Made by a program: the position numbers and the translations under genes. From IMG/VR virus record IMGVR_UViG_2737471827_000007, positions 1-8,284 of that record: a stretch of DNA of 8,284 bases, one strand, 5' to 3'. Numbering within the stretch: position 1 is the stretch's first letter; every line of letters starts with the position of its first letter. Below the pieces are notes generated by a model. That model had not been told where the DNA came from. It saw only the letters and a program-made list of their open reading frames with translations, and made no database searches. Positions 1-8,284 of this stretch are shown in pieces. This stretch comes from a virus (Duplodnaviria; Heunggongvirae; Uroviricota; Caudoviricetes).

Positions 1-642
1 TTAATCGGACGCTTTTAAATTTTTATTTTTCCCAGCAGAAAAATTAGCTTTCCCGCTGTTTTGCAACTCAACAAGAGGAGATAACCGTCGGTAAACAGCC
101 AAAAGTATCTTTAACTGAACCAGTTCATCTGCCCCCGATAGTTGAACCAAGTTTTTACGTTGTTCTTCACTAAGTGCCATCACAGATTCAAGTGATTTAA
201 CTGCGTCAGAAACAAGTTCAATCTCTTTAATTTGATTCTGTATACGCAGCTTCTCTGATTTCAACTTTGCCCATTCTCTTTGTCGATATGTACGCATCAC
301 CTGATCGTAAACTTTGTTGGCAGCCAGAATACTTCCACCAACAGCAGTAACTAACTCAGCAATCTGCCAAGAGATATCAATAAGAGCAGACAATTCAATA
401 AAGCCAGGAGAGGCATACTGAATTTTTTTCACTACAGGACGTAAATCTGGTGGAGTCGCACTGTAAGCCCCTCTAAAAAAGTTCACCACACTGTGCCCCC
501 CCTCCCAAGGCATTGTTGAATATCCTCTTGATCCTCCTTTTAGGCCATAAAAAAAACCATATAGCTGCAAATACTCTTTCGTTAAGACCGCGAAATCAGC
601 TAACTCCCAACGATTATCAAGCTCAATTATAACTTTTTCCAT
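1..642 (-). CDS. hypothetical protein (213 aa), AT-rich cargo gene downstream of ogr; hydrophobic central segment and coiled-coil-like C-terminal half
   Basis: Complete minus-strand ORF: ATG at 642-640, stop TAA at 3-1. Weak SD-like GGTGGAAA just upstream. The first 60 nt are about one-third GC by my count, clearly lower than the GC-rich P/Q/A genes. Protein has a hydrophobic stretch (SPGFIELSALIDISWQIAELVTAVGGSILAA) followed by a charged heptad-like region (KLKSEKLRIQNQIKEIELVSDAVKSLESV). I do not recognise the family. Confidence 0.7.
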   Translation of the reverse strand: MEKVIIELDNRWELADFAVLTKEYLQLYGFFYGLKGGSRGYSTMPWEGGHSVVNFFRGAYSATPPDLRPVVKKIQYASPGFIELSALIDISWQIAELVTAVGGSILAANKVYDQVMRTYRQREWAKLKSEKLRIQNQIKEIELVSDAVKSLESVMALSEEQRKNLVQLSGADELVQLKILLAVYRRLSPLVELQNSGKANFSAGKNKNLKASD

Positions 643-782: not shown

Positions 783-1001
783 TTACATCCACATAATTTG
801 CTGCCCTGACGGCAACGGGTGCGGCCTTACGGCGTGGACTTCTCCCGGCTTCACAATGTATCGCTGTACCGACTCATAAGTGATGAACGTGGCGCTGCAA
901 TTCACGTTCTGACACTGGTGATAACGCTCTTTTGTCGTGTCAGTGATATAGCGACTTGTACGCGCATGTGCGGCATGCTGGCATAAAGGACAATGAAACA
1001 T
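783..1001 (-). CDS. ogr: Ogr/Delta-family zinc-finger late-gene transcriptional activator (72 aa)
   Basis: Translation MFHCPLCQHAAHARTSRYITDTTKERYHQCQNVNCSATFITYESVQRYIVKPGEVHAVRPHPLPSGQQIMWM has the C-X2-C-X22-C-X4-C spacing characteristic of P2 Ogr / P4 Delta. It matches P2 Ogr as far as I can recall, and the 72-aa length matches. Start ATG at 1001-999 has SD AGAGG about 8 nt upstream. The six-frame track opens further upstream at a TTG (1064), which I consider non-coding. Confidence 0.9.
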   Translation of the reverse strand: MFHCPLCQHAAHARTSRYITDTTKERYHQCQNVNCSATFITYESVQRYIVKPGEVHAVRPHPLPSGQQIMWM

Positions 1002-1146
1002 CGCGAGCACCTCTTCCGGTTTTGTTGATGGTGCCATTTTAGTTAATTTATCCTTATAAAACAAATAGATAAAATAAAAACATCACTCATCATCTTCTGT
1101 TTCGTACTCCACATCAGAAAGCCTGACCTCAAGCTCCAGGGACGTC
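1002..1146. promoter_or_regulatory. AT-rich divergent intergenic region expected to carry the ogr promoter and an Ogr-dependent late promoter for P-Q
   Basis: About 145 bp of AT-rich sequence between divergent ogr and P. It contains a partial dyad TGT-N10-ACA (1098-1113), whereas the P2 late-promoter element as I remember it is TGT-N12-ACA, so the match is inexact. Transcription start sites cannot be determined from sequence alone. Confidence 0.3.
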
Positions 1147-1206
1147 GTGAAGCCGCTATTATTCAGAAAATGTGTCACCTTAGTGATTGTCCAGTCCTGC
1201 TCGTCT

Positions 1207-2961
1207 ATGACGCGCTTACACGACCCGCGTCGTCAGGCGGCGCTGCTGTACTGGCAGGGGTTTTCCGTGCCGCAGATTGCCGCCATGTTGCAGATGAAAC
1301 GCCCGACGGTGCAGAGCTGGAAACAGCGCGACGGCTGGGACAGCGTTGCCCCCATCAGCCGTGTCGAAATGAGTCTGGAAGCGCGGCTGACCCAGCTCAT
1401 CATCAAACCGCAGAAAACCGGCGGTGACTTCAAGGAAATTGACCTGCTGGGACGCCAGATTGAACGACTGGCACGGGTAAACCGTTACAGTCAGACCGGC
1501 AACGAGGCAGACCTTAATCCGAACGTCGCTAACCGCAACAAAGGCGGACGGCGCAAACCGAAAAAGAATTTTTTCAGTGACGAGGCCATCGAAAAGCTGG
1601 AGCAGATTTTCTTTGAGCAGTCTTTCGATTATCAGTTGCACTGGTATCGCGCCGGGCTTGAGCACCGCATCCGCGATATCCTGAAATCCCGCCAGATTGG
1701 CGCAACGTTTTATTTTTCCCGCGAGGCGCTGCTGCGCGCCCTGAAAACCGGTCATAACCAGATTTTTCTGTCGGCCAGTAAAACGCAGGCGTATGTGTTC
1801 CGCGAATACATCATCGCCTTTGCCCGGCTGGTTGACGTTGACCTGACCGGTGACCCGATTGTCCTGGGCAATAACGGCGCAAAACTGATTTTTCTCGGCA
1901 CCAACTCCAACACCGCGCAGAGTCATAACGGCGACCTGTATGTCGACGAGATTTTCTGGATCCCGAATTTTCAGGTACTGCGTAAGGTGGCATCAGGTAT
2001 GGCCTCACAGAGTCACCTGCGCTCGACCTATTTCTCCACCCCGTCCACGCTGGCGCACGACGCCTACCCGTTCTGGTCGGGTGAACTGTTTAACCGGGGA
2101 CGCGCCAGCGCCGCTGAACGCGTGGAAATCGACGTCAGTCATAACGCCCTTGCCGGAGGTCTTCTCTGTGCGGACGGCCAGTGGCGGCAGATTGTCACCA
2201 TTGAGGACGCCCTGAAAGGTGGCTGCACATTGTTCGACATTGAGCAGCTTAAACGCGAAAACAGCGCCGACGATTTTAAAAACCTGTTCATGTGTGAATT
2301 TGTTGATGACAAGGCATCGGTATTCCCGTTCGAGGAGCTGCAACGCTGCATGGTCGACACGCTGGAAGAATGGGAAGACTATGCGCCGTTTGCCGCAAAT
2401 CCGTTCGGCTCCCGACCGGTATGGATTGGTTACGACCCGTCACACCGTGGCGACAGCGCCGGATGCGTGGTACTGGCACCGCCGGTGGTGGCCGGTGGCA
2501 AATTCAGAATACTTGAGCGTCACCAGTGGAAAGGTATGGACTTTGCCACCCAGGCGGAATCCATCCGCAAACTCACCGAAAAATACAACGTCGAATACAT
2601 CGGTATTGATGCCACCGGCCTCGGTGTCGGCGTGTTCCAGCTTGTGCGCTCGTTCTATCCCGCCGCGCGCGACATCCGCTACACGCCGGAAATGAAAACC
2701 GCAATGGTGCTCAAGGCAAAAGACGTTATCCGCCGTGGCTGTCTGGAATATGACGTCAGCGCCACCGACATCACCAGCTCGTTCATGGCTATCCGCAAGA
2801 CCATGACCAGCAGCGGACGCAGCGCCACCTATGAGGCCAGCCGCAGCGAGGAAGCCAGCCACGCCGACCTCGCCTGGGCGACCATGCACGCCCTGTTAAA
2901 TGAGCCACTCACCGCCGGTATCAGCACTCCGCTGACATCCACCATTCTGGAGTTTTACTGA
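1207..2961 (+). CDS. P: terminase large (ATPase) subunit, P2 gpP-like
   Basis: Long ORF of 584 aa from ATG 1207, or 604 aa from the alternative in-frame GTG at 1147, which has AGGGA 4 nt upstream. N-terminal region PRRQAALLYWQGFSVPQIAAMLQMKRPTVQSWKQRDGWD and overall length fit P2 gpP (about 590 aa from memory). Stop TGA 2959-2961 overlaps the Q start by 1 nt, as in P2. Confidence 0.9.
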   Translation: MTRLHDPRRQAALLYWQGFSVPQIAAMLQMKRPTVQSWKQRDGWDSVAPISRVEMSLEARLTQLIIKPQKTGGDFKEIDLLGRQIERLARVNRYSQTGNEADLNPNVANRNKGGRRKPKKNFFSDEAIEKLEQIFFEQSFDYQLHWYRAGLEHRIRDILKSRQIGATFYFSREALLRALKTGHNQIFLSASKTQAYVFREYIIAFARLVDVDLTGDPIVLGNNGAKLIFLGTNSNTAQSHNGDLYVDEIFWIPNFQVLRKVASGMASQSHLRSTYFSTPSTLAHDAYPFWSGELFNRGRASAAERVEIDVSHNALAGGLLCADGQWRQIVTIEDALKGGCTLFDIEQLKRENSADDFKNLFMCEFVDDKASVFPFEELQRCMVDTLEEWEDYAPFAANPFGSRPVWIGYDPSHRGDSAGCVVLAPPVVAGGKFRILERHQWKGMDFATQAESIRKLTEKYNVEYIGIDATGLGVGVFQLVRSFYPAARDIRYTPEMKTAMVLKAKDVIRRGCLEYDVSATDITSSFMAIRKTMTSSGRSATYEASRSEEASHADLAWATMHALLNEPLTAGISTPLTSTILEFY

Positions 2962-3995
2962 TGAGCAAGAAAAAAGGGAAAACACCGCAACCTGCGGCAA
3001 AAACAATGACCGCCAGCGCCCCGAAAATGGAGGCATTCACCTTTGGTGAGCCGGTGCCGGTACTCGACCGCCGTGACATTCTGGATTACGTCGAATGCAT
3101 CAGTAACGGCAGATGGTATGAGCCACCAGTCAGCTTTACCGGTCTGGCAAAAAGCCTGCGTGCTGCCGTGCATCACAGCTCCCCGATTTACGTCAAACGT
3201 AATATTCTGGCTTCAACGTTTATCCCGCACCCGTGGCTTTCCCAGCAGGATTTCAGCCGTTTTGTGCTGGATTTTCTGGTGTTCGGTAATGCGTTTCTGG
3301 AAAAGCGTTACAGCACCACCGGTAAGGTCATCAGACTGGAAACCTCACCGGCAAAATATACCCGCCGTGGCGTGGAGGAGGATGTTTACTGGTGGGTGCC
3401 GTCCTTCAACGAGCCGACAGCCTTCACGCCCGGCTCCGTGTTTCACCTGCTGGAGCCGGATATTAATCAGGAGCTGTACGGCCTGCCGGAATATCTCAGC
3501 GCCCTTAACTCTGCCTGGCTGAATGAGTCGGCCACGCTGTTCCGCCGCAAGTATTACGAAAACGGCGCACATGCCGGATACATCATGTACGTCACCGATG
3601 CCGTGCAGGACCGCAACGATATCGAAATGCTTCGCGAAAACATGGTTAAGTCGAAAGGCCGCAACAACTTTAAAAACCTGTTTCTCTATGCCCCGCAGGG
3701 GAAAGCTGACGGCATTAAAATTATCCCGCTCAGTGAAGTGGCAACGAAGGACGATTTTTTTAATATCAAAAAAGCCAGTGCCGCAGACCTGCTGGATGCG
3801 CACCGCATCCCCTTTCAGTTGATGGGCGGCAAGCCGGAGAACGTCGGGTCGTTGGGTGATATTGAGAAAGTGGCAAAGGTCTTTGTCCGCAATGAGCTTA
3901 TCCCGTTACAGGACAGGATCCGCGAGATAAACGGCTGGCTCGGTCAGGAGGTCATCCGCTTTAAAAACTACTCACTGGACACTGACAACGGCTAA
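2961..3995 (+). CDS. Q: portal (capsid portal vertex) protein, P2 gpQ-like (344 aa)
   Basis: 344-aa ORF, the same length as P2 gpQ. ATG at 2961 overlaps the P stop (TGATG). It is immediately upstream of a terminator and the cos site, matching P2 Q-cos synteny. Confidence 0.9.
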   Translation: MSKKKGKTPQPAAKTMTASAPKMEAFTFGEPVPVLDRRDILDYVECISNGRWYEPPVSFTGLAKSLRAAVHHSSPIYVKRNILASTFIPHPWLSQQDFSRFVLDFLVFGNAFLEKRYSTTGKVIRLETSPAKYTRRGVEEDVYWWVPSFNEPTAFTPGSVFHLLEPDINQELYGLPEYLSALNSAWLNESATLFRRKYYENGAHAGYIMYVTDAVQDRNDIEMLRENMVKSKGRNNFKNLFLYAPQGKADGIKIIPLSEVATKDDFFNIKKASAADLLDAHRIPFQLMGGKPENVGSLGDIEKVAKVFVRNELIPLQDRIREINGWLGQEVIRFKNYSLDTDNG

Positions 3996-4164: not shown

Positions 4165-4183
4165 GTGCTTTCCCCGCCTCGCC
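4165..4183 (-). other. P2/P4-type cos cohesive-end sequence (19 nt)
   Basis: Plus strand reads GTGCTTTCCCCGCCTCGCC; its reverse complement GGCGAGGCGGGGAAAGCAC is the 19-nt P2 cohesive end as I remember it. It lies about 170 bp beyond the Q stop, consistent with the P2 left-end arrangement (cos-Q-P). Confidence 0.75.
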
Positions 4184-4468
4184 CGCCCGCTTCACGGGGC
4201 GGTTTTAATGCAGTTGCATAGATACTATGGATCCGCACCAGTCCTGACCGCACGCAGCCTGAACGGACATCCCCAACGCATGCAAAAACATTCACTTGTT
4301 GCATGCATAGCTTTTTAAGTACGCCATACCGCAACTGTACATTTTTAAGCAATTGGCAACTTTAAAAAATTTACATTGCTTTCAAGACCTTATCATCCGT
4401 AGTCTCTGTTTTTTACTTTGAGCTACATCAATAAAATCTCAAACATGTTTAATGCAAAGCCCTTGTTA

Positions 4469-4521
4469 CACAACATAGAATGTATGTCTAGAAACAACGA
4501 CATACTATATGTTGTGTTTTT
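4469..4521 (+). terminator. candidate intrinsic terminator or structured RNA element (interrupted 16-bp hairpin plus T5)
   Basis: CACAACATA (4469-4477) pairs with TATGTTGTG (4508-4516) and GTATGTC (4482-4488) pairs with GACATAC (4499-4505), with a 10-nt apical loop, followed immediately by TTTTT (4517-4521). The stem is AU-rich, so this could equally be a 5' leader structure. Confidence 0.35.
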
Positions 4522-4583
4522 CCGGCTCTCTGTTCGGTGATATGCCAAATCACTTTGCGTTTAAACAGAGCATTATTTCAGGG

Positions 4584-4598
4584 CAAGACTTCGCTCAA
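4584..4598 (+). repeat. 15-bp exact direct repeat, copy 1 (CAAGACTTCGCTCAA)
   Basis: Identical 15-mer recurs at 4848-4862. The two copies bracket the small peptide gene and its terminator. Confidence 0.7.
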
Positions 4599-4661
4599 AA
4601 GTCATTCCACCTAAGAAGCGCATATACCGGTGGAAGTTGCCCTCTACTTACAGGAGGCAAT

Positions 4662-4775
4662 ATGAAGAAATGCTATTACTGCATTCTCGTTCTGGCCCTC
4701 TTTGGCTATCCAAACGGTAGTCCGAGTGGTTTGTCAGTAAACGTCAGTAATATCAATGTCAGCATTATGCTTTAA
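4662..4775 (+). CDS. small hydrophobic peptide (37 aa): MKKCYYCILVLALFGYPNGSPSGLSVNVSNINVSIML
   Basis: Consensus SD AGGAGG (4652-4657) 4 nt before ATG 4662; stop TAA 4773-4775; intrinsic terminator follows 12 nt later. N-terminus is KK plus a 12-13 residue hydrophobic stretch, then a Ser/Asn-rich tail. The six-frame track shows a longer in-frame 88-aa ORF from 4509, but that ATG sits inside a hairpin and has no RBS. Confidence 0.45.
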   Translation: MKKCYYCILVLALFGYPNGSPSGLSVNVSNINVSIML

Positions 4776-4787
4776 TATGCTTCAAAC

Positions 4788-4817
4788 AAAAAAACCACCT
4801 GCCAGGGTGGTTTTTTT
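4788..4817. terminator. bidirectional intrinsic terminator (A7-CCACC-loop-GGTGG-T7)
   Basis: AAAAAAACCACC (4788-4799) and GGTGGTTTTTTT (4806-4817) are perfectly complementary, with loop TGCCAG. The T-run on the plus strand and A-run (T-run on minus) let it terminate both the peptide transcript and the convergent A operon. Confidence 0.6.
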
Positions 4818-4847
4818 GCGCCCATCATCAATACGATGAAAGACTGA

Positions 4848-4862
4848 CAAGACTTCGCTCAA
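4848..4862 (+). repeat. 15-bp exact direct repeat, copy 2 (CAAGACTTCGCTCAA)
   Basis: Identical to 4584-4598. It is embedded in a short reiteration of AAGAC(T/G) at 4841-4846, 4849-4854 and 4861-4866. Confidence 0.7.
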
Positions 4863-4958
4863 GACGAATTATGCGTCGACATAAGGTTACCCGCAATGAT
4901 TTTATTAGACTAAATGGATGGCCTTTTATGACCCGGATCAAACGGCTGTCCTTACCGA

Positions 4959-5009
4959 CATGCTAGTCACTCAATAGCATTTAGCCTTCTAATTCAGCAT
5001 GCTATTGAC
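4959..5009. repeat. operator-like repeat cluster: CATGCTA direct copies with an inverted TAGCAT between them
   Basis: CATGCTAGTCAC (4959-4970) and CATGCTATTGAC (4998-5009) match at 10 of 12 positions, 39 bp apart. The inverted hexamer TAGCAT sits at 4975-4980. The cluster lies in non-coding DNA just 3' of A. Confidence 0.35.
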
Positions 5010-5077
5010 CTTCTGCTGCCCCATAACTGCTCCGCATAAGCCATTCAATGCCATATCAAATCACGTTGTGTTTTTAC

Positions 5078-7354
5078 TCAAATGGGTAACGAGAACCCCG
5101 GCCACTCATCAGCAACCGGATACGTGAATTTTTTCCCGTCATAATTTACGGTCGCGCCACGCGCCAGCGCCTCAAGCTCCCATCGTTGCGGCCTGATACC
5201 GTTCTGAGCGAGGTCAACGCGGATACGGGTAATTTGCAATCGTTCAGACCTGGTCAGTCTGGCAGATGGTGCAATTTCATGCGGTTTTAACGGGATTCCG
5301 TTTCTTTGCTGACGATTTGGTGTTCTCAGTCCGTGTTTTAATGCGCCCCTGAGCGCCATCACGACCTCCGGGTCACTCCATTCGATAACACCGTCATCTA
5401 CCAGATTAAGCACTGCTGCGGCGTGCTCAGAAGGTGTGGGAGCCGGTAACGAAGTATCACCACCGGTGAGCTTTCCACAGTTATTGACAGGACTCCGAGG
5501 CGCGGCGATGCCGCTTTTTAAAGTCAAAGGCTCAACGACCGGCACTTTCGGAACAATGCGCCAGTCCGTCGTTCTGGTGATATGAATATGACGCGCGCCG
5601 AGATGCGGCGCGTAAATGCCGACCACTCTCTCGACTTCTTCCTCGTACTCGTTAACGTCATCCGACGGACTACGGGCGACCCTGACAGTCTGACAATCGC
5701 GCGGGACATTTGCCCCACCCTGCGCGCTGATATACAACGCAAAATCACCACTGTCTGCGGCAGCGCGAGCAGCCTCGACGCGTTCGTCAAACTCATCAGC
5801 AATACTGACGCCGCGAGGCAATTTGCGTAGTTCACGGTAAGCCCCCATTGTCGGCAGTCCAACCGTTTTAAATTGCGGGATGCGCCACGTTGACGCCCAT
5901 GCGGTAACAGCCGCGGCAGTATCTTTAAGCGGCTTACCGGTATCGTTATCGAGCTGACCATCCAGTGCATAGCCGTCGATATTTTTTGAAATGTATTTCG
6001 CGATATATCCCGCAGCACCGCCCCGGTTAAGGTGCTTTGCCTGAAAACGGTTTCGCGCGGCTCCTCTTTCGTCACCATCCTCTTTGAGCGCATAGCGACG
6101 CATGATTTCGATAATCTGGTTACGCTGGCGTGGATTACAAAAAAGCATCATATGCCAGTGCGGCGTTCCGTCGTGGTGTGGCTCGACGACACGCAAACCG
6201 TAGACCTGTAAATCATTATCCTTGAATGCCGTGCGCATCAGGCTCCAGATGCGGCAGAGATAACGCTGCGCATCCTTTGGATTAAATGCCTCATCGTTCC
6301 AGCCGTGATTAAGCTGAACGGTTTTACTTTCGCCTTTTCTGACCTGACGAGTCGGGTGATACTTTGACGGCGCGGTCAGCGTGATAAACATCCCCACATC
6401 ACCCTCTGCGGCGGCGTAACGCTCAATACCGGCAATGGTGTTCATCAGCTCCATCCGGCGAATTTCAGGATTAGAAATACTGCCCATCACCTTACTGATA
6501 AGGTCGATGCGCTCGCCGGTTTCCCTGTTTTCAAGGTCACACGATTTAAGAAATTCCAGATTTGCCTGGCGGCGCGCACGCACATCACGAATGGCGTGTT
6601 TACTGGCATAAGGAGAACGGTCTTTATTGACCTCCCCGACAGCTATCAGTAACGCTTCATGCCAGCGCATACGCTGGCCTTTAAGCTGATGAGTCCACCA
6701 CTCATCGTTAAACAGACGGGCAATGGCAGAATATGCCTGCCTCGTGGTCATCTGCCCTTTACGGTATTTTTTCCAGTAGAGCGGGGAAATATTGAAAGCA
6801 CGTGCAGCGCCAGCAACATGACCATAGAGGTGAGCCTGCGCCTCATCCGTAAACAGCGATTCTTTTTCGCCATGCGCATCCACCCAGGCATCGCTGAGTT
6901 CCTCATACATCATGAAAAGCTGCGATGAGATACGGGCAGCAAACTTTTTCAGCTCCTTGTCATTCATTCCCGGCAGGCGCGCATAGTGGTCACGCTCTGC
7001 CAGAAACAGTAACGACGCGTCGGTGTTCATTTCATGGCGCTGATTCACACGCTCAATGCGCGGCCATAAACGACGCTGAAAAGTGGATGTGAGGAAATAA
7101 AACCCGTGCACCGGGCTTTTATTGCGCCGGATGTAGTCATAGCGTGAAGTAAACAGCGAGCGCAAAAAGTAAGGCAGGCGGTTAATCGTGGATAAAACAC
7201 CTTGCACCTGACGCATCTCGTCACGTGTAAGGGGTCTTTCGCGCCCGACGGCCTCGCGTGGCGCGTTCCATGCATAAGCACCGGTAAACGCCTTACCGGT
7301 GCCTGCAGCAAATGCTGACGGAGGGACAAAACGCCCGGAGGCTTTAACGGCCAT
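5078..7354 (-). CDS. A: rolling-circle replication initiation endonuclease, P2 gpA-like (HUH/Y-X3-Y)
   Basis: 758 aa from ATG 7354 (the ORF opens at TTG 7396, giving 772 aa); P2 gpA is about 761 aa from memory. Contains HUH-type motif PHWHMM and paired catalytic tyrosines in YIAKYISKNIDGY. Confidence 0.9.
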   Translation of the reverse strand: MAVKASGRFVPPSAFAAGTGKAFTGAYAWNAPREAVGRERPLTRDEMRQVQGVLSTINRLPYFLRSLFTSRYDYIRRNKSPVHGFYFLTSTFQRRLWPRIERVNQRHEMNTDASLLFLAERDHYARLPGMNDKELKKFAARISSQLFMMYEELSDAWVDAHGEKESLFTDEAQAHLYGHVAGAARAFNISPLYWKKYRKGQMTTRQAYSAIARLFNDEWWTHQLKGQRMRWHEALLIAVGEVNKDRSPYASKHAIRDVRARRQANLEFLKSCDLENRETGERIDLISKVMGSISNPEIRRMELMNTIAGIERYAAAEGDVGMFITLTAPSKYHPTRQVRKGESKTVQLNHGWNDEAFNPKDAQRYLCRIWSLMRTAFKDNDLQVYGLRVVEPHHDGTPHWHMMLFCNPRQRNQIIEIMRRYALKEDGDERGAARNRFQAKHLNRGGAAGYIAKYISKNIDGYALDGQLDNDTGKPLKDTAAAVTAWASTWRIPQFKTVGLPTMGAYRELRKLPRGVSIADEFDERVEAARAAADSGDFALYISAQGGANVPRDCQTVRVARSPSDDVNEYEEEVERVVGIYAPHLGARHIHITRTTDWRIVPKVPVVEPLTLKSGIAAPRSPVNNCGKLTGGDTSLPAPTPSEHAAAVLNLVDDGVIEWSDPEVVMALRGALKHGLRTPNRQQRNGIPLKPHEIAPSARLTRSERLQITRIRVDLAQNGIRPQRWELEALARGATVNYDGKKFTYPVADEWPGFSLPI
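5484..5503 (-). other. candidate replication origin / gpA nick site inside the A coding sequence
   Basis: Minus strand reads GCGCCTCGGAGTCCTGTCAA. This matches what I recall as the P2 ori sequence cleaved by gpA, and P2 ori is known to lie within the 3' part of gene A. The match is to memory only. Confidence 0.3.
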
Positions 7355-7619
7355 ATGAGCCAAAAGCCTCTGAACAACGCCTGCTGAGTTGCTCAACCTG
7401 CGCGTTTAAATCAGCAAAAGACTTTGCGCTTCCGGTCAGAATATCGTGATGCATCAGGCTGGAAACGAGCTGGCTTAATTTCGGATAATAACCAACCACC
7501 GCCAGCCATTCCTGACCGGCGTTTTTACCGCTTTCCGCTCTCTTTTTCTCGTGGAGAATAAACTGAAAGCTGTCACTGGTAACGACATAACGTTCGCCAA
7601 TTTCAATACGAATACTCAT
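7344..7619 (-). CDS. hypothetical small protein (91 aa) upstream of and overlapping A; early-operon small ORF
   Basis: ATG at 7619 with SD GGAG 6 nt upstream; stop overlaps the A start (7354) by 11 nt, suggesting coupled expression. Translation MSIRIEIGERYVVTSDSFQFILHEKK... has no motif I recognise and no Cys cluster, so it is not an Ogr- or DksA-like finger. Confidence 0.6.
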   Translation of the reverse strand: MSIRIEIGERYVVTSDSFQFILHEKKRAESGKNAGQEWLAVVGYYPKLSQLVSSLMHHDILTGSAKSFADLNAQVEQLSRRCSEAFGSYGR

Positions 7620-7699
7620 GCCGTTCTCCGGTAATGTTTGTTTTTTGCTTCAAAGACTGACTGGCAGGAAACACAACGCGTGGCTGACGGATATCCGGC

Positions 7700-8284
7700 A
7701 TGTTCACAAAATTAATTCAATTGGATGAATTTTCCGGGCAACACCCAATTCACGGACTGCCGCCACTGGCGGAGGCCAACCCTGAAATGACGTTCCTGGA
7801 AAAAGCAGAAATCGAAAAACTGTTAAATGTTTTGGCTGGTGATGACTTACTTGTCGCGCTTTTATGTCTGAGCACTGGAGGAAGATGGACGGAAGTTGCC
7901 ACGCTAAAACCAGCACAGATTACAAATTGCAGGGTTACCTTCCTGAAAACCAAAAACGGTAAAAAGCGAACCGTGCCGATTTCTGAGGAACTGGAGAAAA
8001 AAGTTAAAGAGGAGGCCAGCGCCAAATTATTCAAAGTTGATTATGAGAAATTTTGCGGGATTTTACGCAGAGTGAAACCTGATATACCACCCAATCAGGC
8101 AACCCACATCCTGCGGCATACATTCGCAAGCCATTTCATGATGAATGGGGGCAATATAATCGCACTGCAACAGATTCTGGGACATGCGAGCATTCAGCAG
8201 ACGATGGCCTATGCGCACCTTGCGCCTGACTATCTGCAAAATGCCGTCGCTCTGAATCCACTAAAAGGCGGAGTGACGTTATAA
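7700..8284 (+). CDS. tyrosine recombinase (phage integrase family), catalytic domain only, 194 aa
   Basis: Box I TGGRWTE, box II HILRHTFASHF, and LGHASIQQTMAYAHL with the catalytic Tyr. An in-frame TGA at 7685-7687 limits any N-terminal extension to 4 codons, so the protein lacks the usual arm- and core-binding N-terminal domains of full integrases (330-400 aa). There is no obvious SD. Confidence 0.8.
   Translation: MFTKLIQLDEFSGQHPIHGLPPLAEANPEMTFLEKAEIEKLLNVLAGDDLLVALLCLSTGGRWTEVATLKPAQITNCRVTFLKTKNGKKRTVPISEELEKKVKEEASAKLFKVDYEKFCGILRRVKPDIPPNQATHILRHTFASHFMMNGGNIIALQQILGHASIQQTMAYAHLAPDYLQNAVALNPLKGGVTL

What the first reader, a model, noticed from the sequence alone, without database searches (positions are those of the whole stretch)
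4184..5077. The cos-to-A interval is only about 0.9 kb and lacks old/tin-type genes
In P2 this interval is about 3 kb and encodes orf91, tin and old; in relatives it is reported to hold diverse defence systems. Here it is AT-rich and mostly non-coding, with many short palindromes and repeats (GCATGC twice, TGCATGCA 4300-4307, TTTTTAAG twice at 4312 and 4342). The locus may be an emptied hotspot, or may carry a non-canonical RNA- or peptide-based cargo that size-thresholded gene callers would miss.
Basis: partly seen in the sequence, partly recalled or inferred. Interest (0 to 1): 0.5.

Follow-up and report, generated by a model that had tools for sequence, protein, structure and literature searches.

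The report
Hidden small-gene/sRNA cassette beside P2 cos
The apparently empty 0.9-kb gap between the packaging site and the replication gene of this P2-type prophage holds an unannotated cassette, a 37-amino-acid membrane peptide gene plus a small RNA that pairs with its messenger, which also occurs on hundreds of Klebsiella and Salmonella plasmids and looks like a new RNA-controlled toxin-antitoxin module.

Summary
The part at 4311-5077 is AT-rich (40% GC).

The interval is not empty. Positions 4184-4310 are cos-flanking P2/186 backbone. Positions 4364-4950 are a discrete cassette, found in about 150 of 5,426 complete E. coli genomes and never annotated by PGAP. Diverged copies sit on 416 plasmids, mostly Klebsiella.

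The cassette contains:
- a promoter homologous to the E. coli nrdDG control region, with FNR-like and NrdR-like boxes;
- a structured 5' UTR;
- a 37-codon ORF (4662-4775) under purifying selection (dN/dS 0.13-0.3);
- an invariant bidirectional terminator;
- a convergent ~75-nt sRNA candidate with its own conserved promoter.

The sRNA's 5' end is complementary to the mRNA 5' UTR (4582-4598). This pairing is kept in 14 variants through compensatory changes at four positions.

The best reading is a new type I toxin-antitoxin-like module. Its layout resembles par/Fst of pAD1. Toxicity, transcription and any defence role are untested.

The parts
4165..4183 (.). P2 cos 19-nt cohesive-end sequence
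   Evidence: A unique exact match. The same 19-mer lies at or near the ends of linear phage records L001 and L002. Phage genome records terminate on either side of it.
4184..4310 (.). cos-flanking backbone; contains the GCATGC/TGCATGCA palindromes
   Evidence: 73-98% identical to the genome ends of P2-, 186-, PSP3- and Fels-2-type phages of Escherichia, Yersinia, Salmonella, Erwinia and Klebsiella. Inverted repeat I5 is at 4278-4306. GC is 0.535.
4311..4363 (.). Variable junction; in relatives, protein-coding cargo is inserted to its left
   Evidence: The most variable part of alignment A1. In L005, L006 and L002, three genes lie between cos and this point.
4364..4488 (+). Promoter region homologous to the E. 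coli nrdDG control region. FNR-2-like TTGAGCTACATCAA at 4418-4431; FNR-1-like TTAATGCAAAGCCC at 4449-4462; -10 TAGAAT at 4476-4481; NrdR-box-like ACACAACATAGAATGT at 4468-4483.
   Evidence: The local alignment to the treC-nrdD intergenic region (L010) scores 106-119, against a shuffle mean of 19 and maximum of 35. The nrdDG NrdR-box probe sequence is given in PMC12176259, and FNR activation of nrdDG in PMC2892513. The same elements are conserved across the plasmid lineages. TF binding and the transcription start (~4489) are inferred.
4502..4517 (+). Second NrdR-box-like sequence, ATACTATATGTTGTGT
   Evidence: 14 of 16 matches to the NrdR-box consensus as I recall it. It lies 18 nt from box 1 in this window and 16 nt in the other E. 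coli variants. 15-16 nt is the canonical spacing (abstract of PMC13584703). Binding was not tested.
4489..4818 (+). Inferred ~330-nt mRNA: structured 5' UTR, SD AGGAGG at 4652-4657, ORF, terminator
   Evidence: Fold z-score is -5.7 for 4403-4822. A compensatory change CCACC/GGTGG to CCGCC/GGCGG occurs in a 5' UTR helix. The SD is mostly paired in predicted ensembles.
4582..4598 (+). 5' UTR target site GGCAAGACTTCGCTCAA (repeat copy 1), partly in a hairpin loop
   Evidence: An exact 15-nt direct repeat with 4848-4862. The pairing with the sRNA 5' end covaries.
4662..4775 (+). 37-codon ORF: MKKCYYCILVLALFGYPNGSPSGLSVNVSNINVSIML
   Evidence: Of 13 variable sites among E. coli variants, 10 are at codon position 3 and none at position 2. 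dN/dS is 0.13-0.3 across lineages, and the length stays at 37-39 aa at about 75% nucleotide identity or below. The upstream 88-aa extension is open only in this lineage. In databases it appears only as 'hypothetical protein', e.g. ECW_m2278.
4787..4818 (.). Bidirectional intrinsic terminator CAAAAAAACCACCTGCCAGGGTGGTTTTTTTG
   Evidence: 13-nt perfect inverted repeat I2. Its core was part of the search pattern behind, so that call says nothing about conservation. Independently, it is identical in the E. coli, Klebsiella and Salmonella lineages found by BLAST or by the ORF pattern.
4786..4862 (-). Candidate ~75-nt sRNA: 5' single-stranded seed (4862 to 4846), middle hairpin, terminator hairpin
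   Evidence: Fold z-score is -4.0. The same three-part structure appears in 8 lineages, with 8 pairs changed on both sides in the middle hairpin. 70 of 83 hairpin cells pair on this strand against 58 of 83 on the other. Duplex energy with the 5' UTR is -31 to -44 kcal/mol, against -20 to -29 for shuffles.
4868..4896 (-). sRNA promoter: -35 TTGCGG (4896 to 4891), 17-nt spacer, -10 CATAAT (4873 to 4868)
   Evidence: In all lineages both hexamers and the 17-18-nt spacing are kept while the spacer sequence diverges, and the seed always begins 6-7 nt after the -10. The -10 was part of the metagenome search pattern but not of the BLAST or ORF searches.
4897..4950 (.). Right-hand part of the cassette: A/T-rich region upstream of the sRNA promoter
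   Evidence: Still alignable with the Klebsiella plasmid copy up to about 4950.
4951..5077 (-). A-proximal spacer. With the cassette it forms the 3' untranslated tail of the early (A) transcript up to the terminator.
   Evidence: The least conserved part among E. coli variants and absent from the plasmid copies. No convincing terminator lies between the A stop codon and 4818 on the minus strand.

Best explanation
The interval has three layers: cos-flanking packaging backbone (4184-4310), a self-contained ~590-bp cassette (4364-4950), and a short A-proximal spacer.

The cassette carries two convergent transcription units that share one bidirectional terminator.

1. On the plus strand, a promoter derived from the nrdDG control region drives a ~330-nt mRNA. 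The promoter has FNR-like activator sites and NrdR-like operator boxes, so it is probably switched on by anaerobiosis and by low dATP. The mRNA has a long structured 5' UTR with a sequestered Shine-Dalgarno and encodes a 37-aa peptide. The peptide has a basic N-terminus, a short hydrophobic helix with a conserved Cys, and a polar C-terminus in which hydrophobic and polar residues alternate.

2. On the minus strand, a sigma-70 promoter that looks constitutive drives a ~75-nt sRNA. Its first 15-17 nt pair with a hairpin-loop region of the mRNA 5' UTR, 64 nt upstream of the start codon.

I infer that the sRNA keeps the peptide mRNA silent, by a change in mRNA structure and/or by cleavage of the duplex. 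I also infer that the peptide is a membrane-active toxin, which would make this a type I toxin-antitoxin module. Such a module would stabilise its carrier (prophage, prophage remnant or IncF plasmid) and might abort infections that shut off host transcription.

In P2-type phages the early A transcript reads into the sRNA region, so the phage's own lytic transcription would supply extra antitoxin sequence.

Shown by comparison: the ORF is coding, the sRNA structure and promoter are conserved, the pairing covaries, and the promoter is homologous to nrdDG.

Inferred: both transcripts exist with these ends, FNR and NrdR bind, the sRNA represses, the peptide is toxic, and any role in stabilisation or defence.
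For: Coding:
- 10 of 13 variable sites are at codon position 3 and none at position 2.
- dN/dS is 0.13-0.3 where synonymous sites are not saturated.
- The ORF stays at 37-39 aa with a conserved SD in E. coli, Klebsiella, Salmonella and metagenome lineages.

sRNA:
- The seed/hairpin/terminator architecture is conserved, with 8 hairpin pairs changed on both sides.
- Strand asymmetry from G.U pairs favours the minus strand.
- The -35 and -10 hexamers are conserved with a diverged 17-18-nt spacer, and the seed sits at +1.

Pairing:
- The 16-bp core is paired in 97.8% of cells across 14 variants.
- 4 pairs show double-sided changes, and 0 of 500 shuffles reach the covariation score.
- Pairing falls to 28-41% when the register is slid. 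The flanks do not pair.
- All three asymmetric differences between the two copies are G.U-compatible.

Promoter: homology to nrdDG is far above shuffles, and the FNR and NrdR-type boxes are kept in lineages whose synonymous sites are saturated.

Distribution typical of addiction or defence modules:
- about 150 E. coli P2-type prophages and 416 mostly conjugative IncF plasmids;
- neighbours include a dinQ type I toxin, Abi_2 genes, a CBASS-like set, resolvases and IS elements;
- a toxin-less deletion derivative exists (L043).

No known family matches: Rfam; Pfam, NCBIfam, PHROGs and PADLOC.
Against: - There are no expression data. Both transcription starts are inferred.
- Toxicity is untested. 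The hydrophobic stretch is only about 13-15 residues, short for a classic type I toxin helix.
- Blocking the seed in silico does not change predicted SD accessibility, so how pairing 64 nt upstream would repress translation is unresolved.
- The three compensatory positions in the Salmonella-type clade may be one historical event.
- The two repeat copies do recombine (L043), so concerted evolution by gene conversion cannot be excluded.
- In this window's own variant the FNR-1 half-site is TTAAT rather than TTGAT, and the NrdR-like boxes are 18 nt apart rather than 15-16. Its regulation may therefore differ from the family norm.
- The -10 of the sRNA promoter and the terminator were part of the metagenome search pattern, so their conservation in those loci is by construction.
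Confidence: 0.6

Rival explanations
1. The cassette is real, but the peptide is not a toxin. It would be a conditionally expressed small membrane protein, a lysogenic- or plasmid-conversion factor tied to anaerobic growth or nucleotide supply. The sRNA would be its ordinary post-transcriptional regulator.
For: All the evidence for coding, sRNA and pairing fits this equally well. The nrdDG-type promoter points to a physiological signal. The hydrophobic segment is short and the C-terminus is polar and conserved, as in several regulatory small proteins. There is no similarity to any known toxin family.
Against: A dedicated cis-encoded sRNA with a strong promoter, a translationally closed mRNA, carriage on plasmids and prophages, and neighbours that are type I toxins or Abi genes are all more typical of TA modules. 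Only a toxin-less derivative was seen; no sRNA-less derivative was found.
Confidence: 0.28
2. The two 13-18-nt repeat copies are recombination or insertion scars. They would be kept identical by gene conversion, or both would bind the same factor. The minus-strand 'sRNA' would then be no more than the terminator-proximal tail of upstream transcription.
For: A deletion lies exactly between the two copies in L043. Most of the covariation sits in one clade.
Against: - Differences between the copies are all G.U-compatible in the mRNA:sRNA orientation.
- The repeat always starts 6-7 nt after a conserved -10 with a matching -35, including on plasmids that have no upstream A gene.
- The middle hairpin is conserved in structure but not in sequence, and it favours the minus strand.
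- L071 changes G to A in both copies and also changes the intramolecular partner in the mRNA, as read directly from the sequences.
Confidence: 0.08
3. The interval is simply an emptied hotspot. Everything left is backbone (cos flank, A 3' UTR, terminator), conserved only through recent common descent.
For: No annotated genes are present. The interval is AT-rich. 58 genomes share the gene-free layout.
Against: Only 4184-4310 is general backbone. The remainder is absent from P2 itself and from most P2-type prophages: about 150 carriers among 2,167 genomes with P2-type Q/cos/A sequence. It recurs on unrelated plasmids at about 75% identity or below, with the ORF, the promoters and the pairing all preserved.
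Confidence: 0.04

Closest known systems
par (Fst / RNA I - RNA II) type I toxin-antitoxin locus of Enterococcus faecalis plasmid pAD1 (recalled from the literature; not tested here)
   Same: A small hydrophobic peptide mRNA and an antitoxin RNA are transcribed convergently. They share one bidirectional intrinsic terminator, and further complementarity comes from direct DNA repeats near the 5' ends. The locus is carried on a plasmid.
   Different: There is no sequence similarity. Here there is one repeat, 64 nt upstream of the start codon, rather than two overlapping the initiation region. The hosts are Gram-negative, the carriers include a prophage, and the toxin promoter is of the nrdDG type.
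tisB/istR-1, zorO/orzO, shoB/ohsC and dinQ/agrB of E. coli (type I TA with short trans-type complementarity; from memory and abstracts)
   Same: A long structured 5' UTR; an sRNA that pairs over about 15-20 nt far upstream of the ribosome-binding site; a stress-regulated toxin promoter against a constitutive sRNA; a peptide under 40 aa.
   Different: Those pairs are divergent or overlapping rather than convergent with a shared terminator. Their toxins are unrelated single helices, and their control is through LexA or is unknown, not through FNR/NrdR-like sites. None of their Rfam or NCBIfam models matches here.
P2 TO-region / gpA-gpQ defence hotspot (old, tin, orf91; Rousset et al. 2022, PMC9122126; PMC13586616; PMC3091744)
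   Same: The same genomic position next to cos. Relatives with this cassette also carry retron Ec48, SIR2, AAA-ATPase or ImmA/IrrE cargo in the same Q-A region.
   Different: No protein-coding defence gene is present here. The cassette adjoins A, is semi-conserved, and co-occurs with varied cargo. It is invisible to protein-based hotspot surveys, which collect annotated genes between gpA and gpQ.
E. coli nrdDG promoter (FNR-activated, NrdR-repressed; PMC2892513, PMC12176259)
   Same: About 100-125 nt of clear sequence homology, including both FNR-type sites, the -10, and NrdR-box-like sequences.
   Different: It drives a 37-codon ORF on mobile elements rather than a ribonucleotide reductase. 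In this window's lineage one FNR half-site and the box spacing have drifted.
hok/sok family
   Same: A type I TA on plasmids and prophages. A role in phage exclusion has been reported (recalled).
   Different: The Hok NCBIfam and Pfam models do not match. Sok overlaps the hok leader in antisense, whereas here the sRNA gene lies downstream of the ORF.

Membership tests
Type I toxin-antitoxin system | Small (<60 aa) hydrophobic protein encoded by a stable, poorly translated mRNA | tested here: met
   A 37-aa ORF under purifying selection, with a hydrophobic residue 4-16 segment. The SD is predicted to be about 80% paired. mRNA stability is not testable here.
Type I toxin-antitoxin system | A cognate RNA antitoxin that base-pairs with the toxin mRNA | tested here: met
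   A conserved sRNA candidate with its own promoter. A 14-17-bp pairing is kept by compensatory changes, and 0 of 500 shuffles reach the observed score. The evidence is computational only.
Type I toxin-antitoxin system | The protein is toxic when expressed without the RNA, and the RNA neutralises it | not testable with these tools
   Needs expression experiments. The only indirect hint is a natural derivative that lost the ORF but kept the sRNA promoter (L043).
Known type I toxin or antitoxin families (Hok, Ldr, Ibs, TisB, ShoB, ZorO, DinQ, SymE, Fst; Sok, Sib, Rdl, IstR, OhsC, OrzO) | A match to the family's protein or RNA model | tested here: not met
   No Pfam, NCBIfam, PHROGs or PADLOC hit for three peptide variants. 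No Rfam hit other than sub-threshold terminator-driven RNAI and Phe_leader matches. The search of 5.8 billion protein clusters found only near-identical E. coli proteins.
par/Fst-type architecture | Convergent toxin and antitoxin transcripts that share a bidirectional terminator, with direct repeats supplying 5' complementarity | tested here: met
   The layout is read directly from the sequence and is conserved in all lineages. The comparison with par rests on memory of the literature.
P2 old/tin/orf91 cargo | Presence of an Old (ATPase-TOPRIM), Tin or Orf91 coding sequence between A and cos | tested here: not met
   No ORF over 88 aa and no domain hit. The P2 reference does not align beyond the cos flank.
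FNR/NrdR-regulated nrdDG-type promoter | Two FNR sites, a -10, and a pair of 16-bp NrdR boxes with a 15-16-bp linker | tested here: inconclusive
   Sequence homology is strong. FNR-type sites are conserved family-wide, and box pairs with 15-16-nt linkers occur in the other E. coli variants and in L064/L040. In this window FNR-1 reads TTAAT and the linker is 18 nt. Binding was not tested.
P2 cos site | The 19-nt cohesive-end sequence with conserved flanks, between Q and the right end of the genome | tested here: met
   An exact 19-mer, with flanks conserved and coinciding with the termini of linear phage records.

The most novel reading that the evidence does not exclude
The cassette is a nucleotide-pool- and oxygen-gated abortive-infection module.
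- NrdR and FNR sites borrowed from the host nrdDG promoter would let a mobile element read dNTP depletion or replication stress caused by an invading phage.
- Loss of the labile sRNA after host transcription shut-off would release a membrane toxin.
- P2's own early transcript, which reads through the sRNA region as its 3' UTR, would protect the resident phage's lytic cycle from self-killing.

This would make many 'gene-free' P2 hotspots, and hundreds of Klebsiella plasmids, carriers of a defence system that protein-based surveys cannot see.
Probability: 0.15. Interest if true: 0.85.

Novelty: new variant of a known kind. Interest (0 to 1): 0.6.

Why it matters
Surveys of P2 and P4 defence hotspots collect annotated proteins between gpA and gpQ (PMC9122126). 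One recent survey reports that no P2 was found with both main hotspots gene-free (PMC13586616).

This locus shows that an apparently gene-free hotspot can still carry a conserved, selected cassette built from a 37-codon gene and an sRNA. NCBI's pipeline does not annotate it in any of the records listed.

The same cassette sits on 416 plasmids, mostly conjugative Klebsiella IncF. If it is an addiction or defence module, it bears on the persistence of plasmids that also carry resistance and virulence genes.

It would also be the first type I TA-like module I know of whose toxin promoter is borrowed from a ribonucleotide reductase operon. That would link RNA-controlled toxins to nucleotide supply rather than to the SOS response.

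The comparative evidence gives exact positions for mutagenesis, so the hypothesis can be tested directly.

Tried and rejected
- The inverted repeat at 4466-4520 first looked like an RNA hairpin or terminator. I rejected that reading: it is two palindromic NrdR-box-like sequences inside a region homologous to the nrdDG promoter.
- I first guessed a promoter TTTACA-15-TATCAT at 4370-4396 with a start near 4404. I replaced it with the nrdDG-homologous -10 at 4476-4481. The upstream piece is conserved nrdD-upstream sequence.
- Rfam at E <= 1 gave only sub-threshold Phe_leader and RNAI hits caused by the terminator.
- Pfam, NCBIfam, PHROGs and PADLOC gave nothing for the peptides.
The 88-aa extended ORF found only near-identical E. 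coli clusters.
- Two genome-contig scans (N-terminal back-translation; a 5' UTR motif) found nothing among one-genome-per-species representatives.
- A literature search for peptide strings found no paper.
- I looked for experimental TSS or Hfq data in K. pneumoniae MGH 78578 (PMC10907235). The first 150 kb of pKPN3 lack the cassette, so I dropped this route.
- RNAalifold on a MAFFT alignment of the SD-proximal domain gave only a weak consensus.
- Constraint folding did not show that blocking the seed changes SD accessibility, so a specific switch mechanism is not supported.
- The 10-nt inverted repeat at 4971-5008 is not kept by compensatory changes.
- No further seed match occurs in the window.
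Full report
**Context of the window**

The window is a reduced P2-type prophage. Its layout is:
- a 213-aa ORF (1-642, minus strand);
- ogr (783-1064, minus strand; Ogr_Delta, E = 2e-21);
- terminase P (1147-2961);
- portal Q (2961-3995);
- cos;
- the interval under study;
- replication gene A (5078-7396, minus strand);
- a DUF5405 gene;
- an integrase fragment.

The same layout lies between fieF and cpxP in E. coli Res13-Lact-PEB01-20, where PGAP marks D, TraR and int as fragments. The structural genes are gone, so this is a remnant and not a viable phage.

**Checking the observation**

The P2 cohesive-end 19-mer is at 4165-4183. It is unique in the window, with none expected by chance. Deposited linear genomes of P2-, 186- and Yersinia-type phages end on either side of it. 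Gene A stops at 5078, so the interval is 894 nt.

No ORF in the interval exceeds 88 aa, and none matches Pfam, NCBIfam, PHROGs or PADLOC. GC is 0.40 over 4311-5077, against 0.53-0.55 in the neighbouring genes. P2's own order, Old-Tin-Orf91-A, and the name 'TO-region' are given in PMC3091744. The gpA-gpQ hotspot is described in PMC9122126.

Six-base palindromes, however, are no more frequent than in shuffles: 14 against 14.5 +/- 3.9. The GCATGC pair lies in conserved backbone.

**Layers of the interval**

Sensitive BLAST against 50,697 phage records shows that only 4184 to about 4310 is general backbone. That stretch is 73-98% identical to the genome ends of phages of five genera.

The rest, from about 4311/4341 to 5077, is found in only three phage records. 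It is also found in about 150 of 5,426 complete E. coli genomes, which is about 7% of the 2,167 genomes that hold P2-type Q/cos/A sequence. PGAP annotates nothing there in any of the records listed.

The same segment co-occurs with different protein cargo placed on either side of cos:
- an AAA ATPase plus a hypothetical protein in E. coli W;
- retron Ec48;
- a SIR2 protein;
- an ImmA/IrrE set.

58 genomes have the fully gene-free Q-cos-A layout seen in this window. One of them is an otherwise complete prophage (L007).

**The small ORF**

Within the segment, AGGAGG (4652-4657) precedes a 37-codon ORF at 4662-4775. A perfect 13-bp-stem terminator flanked by A7 and T7 follows it.

Among 27 distinct E. 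coli and IMG/VR variants, 13 ORF sites vary. Ten are at codon position 3, three at position 1 and none at position 2. By my own binomial calculation, that skew has a probability of about 0.002.

Diverged copies keep a 37-39-aa ORF with a conserved SD. They come from Klebsiella IncF plasmids (about 75% nucleotide identity), a Salmonella IncF plasmid, and metagenome contigs. dN/dS is 0.13-0.3 wherever synonymous sites are not saturated.

The 88-aa in-frame extension that gene callers sometimes report is open only in this window's lineage. I conclude that the 37-aa protein is real.

The peptide has a basic N-terminus, an invariant Cys within a 13-15-residue hydrophobic stretch, a Gly-rich turn, and a C-terminal segment in which hydrophobic and polar residues alternate. 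Public databases know it only as 'hypothetical protein', for example ECW_m2278 of E. coli W. No distant relatives turned up among 5.8 billion protein clusters.

**The promoter**

A weak E. coli hit led to the treC-nrdD intergenic region. Window 4362-4463, and up to about 4485 in the sister variant, aligns to the nrdDG control region. The score is 106-119, against a shuffle mean of 19 and a maximum of 35.

The shared elements are:
- the upstream FNR-type site TTGAGCTACATCAA (4418-4431);
- the downstream FNR-type site (4449-4462);
- the -10 (TAGAAT, 4476-4481);
- NrdR-box-like sequences.

The experimentally used nrdDG NrdR probe is printed in PMC12176259. FNR activation and the overlap of the NrdR1 box with an FNR site are described in PMC2892513.

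By homology I place the transcription start near 4489. This uses my recollection that the nrdDG FNR sites are centred at -64.5 and -33.5.

The plasmid lineages keep TTGATGCAAATCAC, an nrdD-like box 1 (TCACTATATATAGAAC), and in some cases an nrdD-like box 2 at a 15-nt spacing. Their synonymous sites are saturated, so the promoter is under constraint.

This window's own variant has drifted. FNR-1 reads TTAAT, and the two NrdR-like boxes (4468-4483 and 4502-4517) are 18 nt apart rather than 16.

The inverted repeat that looked like a hairpin at 4466-4520 is therefore a pair of operator-like boxes. Binding by FNR and NrdR is inferred, not shown.

**The sRNA and the pairing**

CAAGACTTCGCTCAA occurs at 4584 in the 5' UTR and again at 4848, just beyond the terminator. 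By my estimate, the expected number of exact 15-nt repeats in 893 nt is about 4e-4.

Read on the minus strand, the second copy begins 6-7 nt after CATAAT (4873 to 4868). TTGCGG lies 17 nt further upstream (4896 to 4891). In every lineage these hexamers and the 17-18-nt spacing are kept while the spacer sequence is unrelated.

The -10 was part of the metagenome search pattern. It was not part of the ORF-based or BLAST-based retrievals.

The resulting 72-76-nt RNA folds in all eight lineages into an unpaired 5' seed, a middle hairpin and the terminator hairpin. Eight hairpin pairs have changed on both sides. 70 of 83 hairpin cells pair on the minus-strand RNA, 16 of them as G.U, against 58 of 83 on the plus strand.

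I tested the intermolecular pairing on 14 distinct variants, joining the 5' UTR site to the sRNA 5' end:
- Columns 8-22 pair in essentially every sequence, while both flanks do not.
- For the 16-pair core, 97.8% of cells pair.
- Four pairs show compensatory double changes: C-G to U-A twice, A-U to G-C, and G-C to A-U.
- 0 of 500 shuffles reach the observed covariation score.
- Sliding the register drops pairing to 28-41%.

The Salmonella-type lineages read TAAGGCTTTGCTCA at both sites, where E. coli and Klebsiella read CAAGACTTCGCTCA. L071 has GTGACAAG at both sites. L047 is an intermediate whose single difference gives a G.U pair.

All three asymmetric differences between the copies are G.U-compatible in the mRNA:sRNA orientation. 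RNA pairing predicts this; gene conversion or a shared protein-binding site does not. With three events, though, the probability is only 0.125.

Duplex energies are -31 to -44 kcal/mol, against -20 to -29 for shuffled seeds.

In the mRNA, the target lies partly in the loop of a small conserved hairpin. It overlaps the 5' strand of a helix whose 3' strand sits next to an anti-SD-like CCCUC.

Predicted SD accessibility is low (about 0.2) whether or not the seed is blocked. I therefore cannot say how pairing would repress translation.

**Extent and distribution of the cassette**

Homology with the plasmid copies runs from about 4364 to about 4950. The cassette is thus a discrete unit of about 590 bp.

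It is on 416 PLSDB plasmids, 395 of them Klebsiella and 352 conjugative. It is also on a few Salmonella IncF plasmids and on non-P2 metagenome contigs.

Its neighbours include an annotated dinQ type I toxin and a CBASS-like gene set, Abi_2 genes in two different lineages, a resolvase and a Tn3 transposase.

One Klebsiella plasmid has a deletion exactly between the two repeat copies. It lost the ORF and the terminator but kept both promoters (L043). I saw no derivative that keeps the ORF without the sRNA, but the sample is small and its members are related.

**Interpretation**

The anatomy is that of a type I toxin-antitoxin module. Its layout (convergent RNAs, a shared bidirectional terminator, and complementarity supplied by direct repeats) matches what I recall of par/Fst from pAD1. 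Pairing far upstream of the RBS resembles what I recall of tisB/istR-1 and zorO/orzO.

It matches none of the known toxin or antitoxin families that were tested.

In P2-type phages no other terminator lies between the A stop codon and 4818. The early transcript should therefore end with the sRNA sequence as its 3' UTR.

Toxicity, repression, FNR and NrdR control, and any stabilisation or anti-phage role are inferences. A non-toxic, conditionally expressed small membrane protein with a dedicated sRNA is the main rival.

**Verdict**

Its second interpretation, a peptide- or RNA-based cargo missed by gene callers, is supported. The elements it pointed to were not the relevant ones.

The cassette appears to be undescribed. 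There are no family models for it, only 'hypothetical protein' names, and no paper containing the peptide. I rate it a new variant of a known kind, of moderate to high interest, pending simple experiments.

Noticed in passing
window 1-642 (-): The 213-aa ORF beside ogr, at the prophage edge, matches the PADLOC profile PD-T4-10_B (E = 1.3e-34, profile positions 139-346 of 353). It has no Pfam or PHROGs hit, and PGAP calls it hypothetical. The remnant therefore seems to carry a defence-type gene, possibly truncated, outside the A-Q hotspot.
   Followed up: partly
window 783-3995 and 7344-8284; L009: The window is a prophage remnant. ogr is joined through a D fragment to P, every gene from O to D is missing, and a TraR fragment is joined to an integrase fragment. 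The same scar lies between fieF and cpxP in another strain. P, Q, cos, the cassette and A have been retained together.
   Followed up: partly
L003, L004, L008 versus L002, L005, L006: In relatives the variable defence cargo lies on either side of cos. AAA ATPase, retron Ec48 and SIR2 sit between Q and cos. The ImmA/IrrE set sits between cos and the cassette. The 'hotspot' is therefore two insertion zones flanking the packaging site.
   Followed up: partly
window 4789-4816; small plasmids: The cassette's terminator core is 100% identical over 27-28 nt to a sequence in hundreds of small ColE1-like plasmids of several genera. It gives sub-threshold Rfam RNAI hits (24-27 bits; gathering score 47). 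Whether this reflects shared origin or convergence was not examined.
   Followed up: no
L044 and L045 at about 1500-2040; L039 3818-3955: Some Klebsiella plasmids share only the upstream part of the nrdD-like promoter region. It is followed by unrelated sequence and a DinQ/ZorO-like ORF (METLTKVIQTLKALIVLLELIRWFF). An annotated dinQ also lies about 1 kb from the cassette in L039. Type I toxin genes seem to cluster around this promoter fragment.
   Followed up: no
L043 at about 1700-1745: A Klebsiella plasmid has a clean deletion between the two repeat copies. It removed the ORF and the terminator and kept both promoters.
   Followed up: yes
E. coli records: Many 'complete' E. coli assemblies place the interval at record positions 2278-3170. 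Those chromosomes therefore start at the P2 gene A, which is probably an artefact of automatic rotation to a 'replication' gene.
   Followed up: no
L049 11625-12641 and L066 9721-10662: Abi_2 (Abi-like) genes lie within about 1 kb of the cassette in two different cassette lineages on non-P2 metagenome contigs.
   Followed up: no
window 4533-4562 and 5044-5073: A 30-nt imperfect direct repeat (73% identity) links the 5' UTR to the sequence just before the A stop codon. It is unexplained and may be chance.
   Followed up: no
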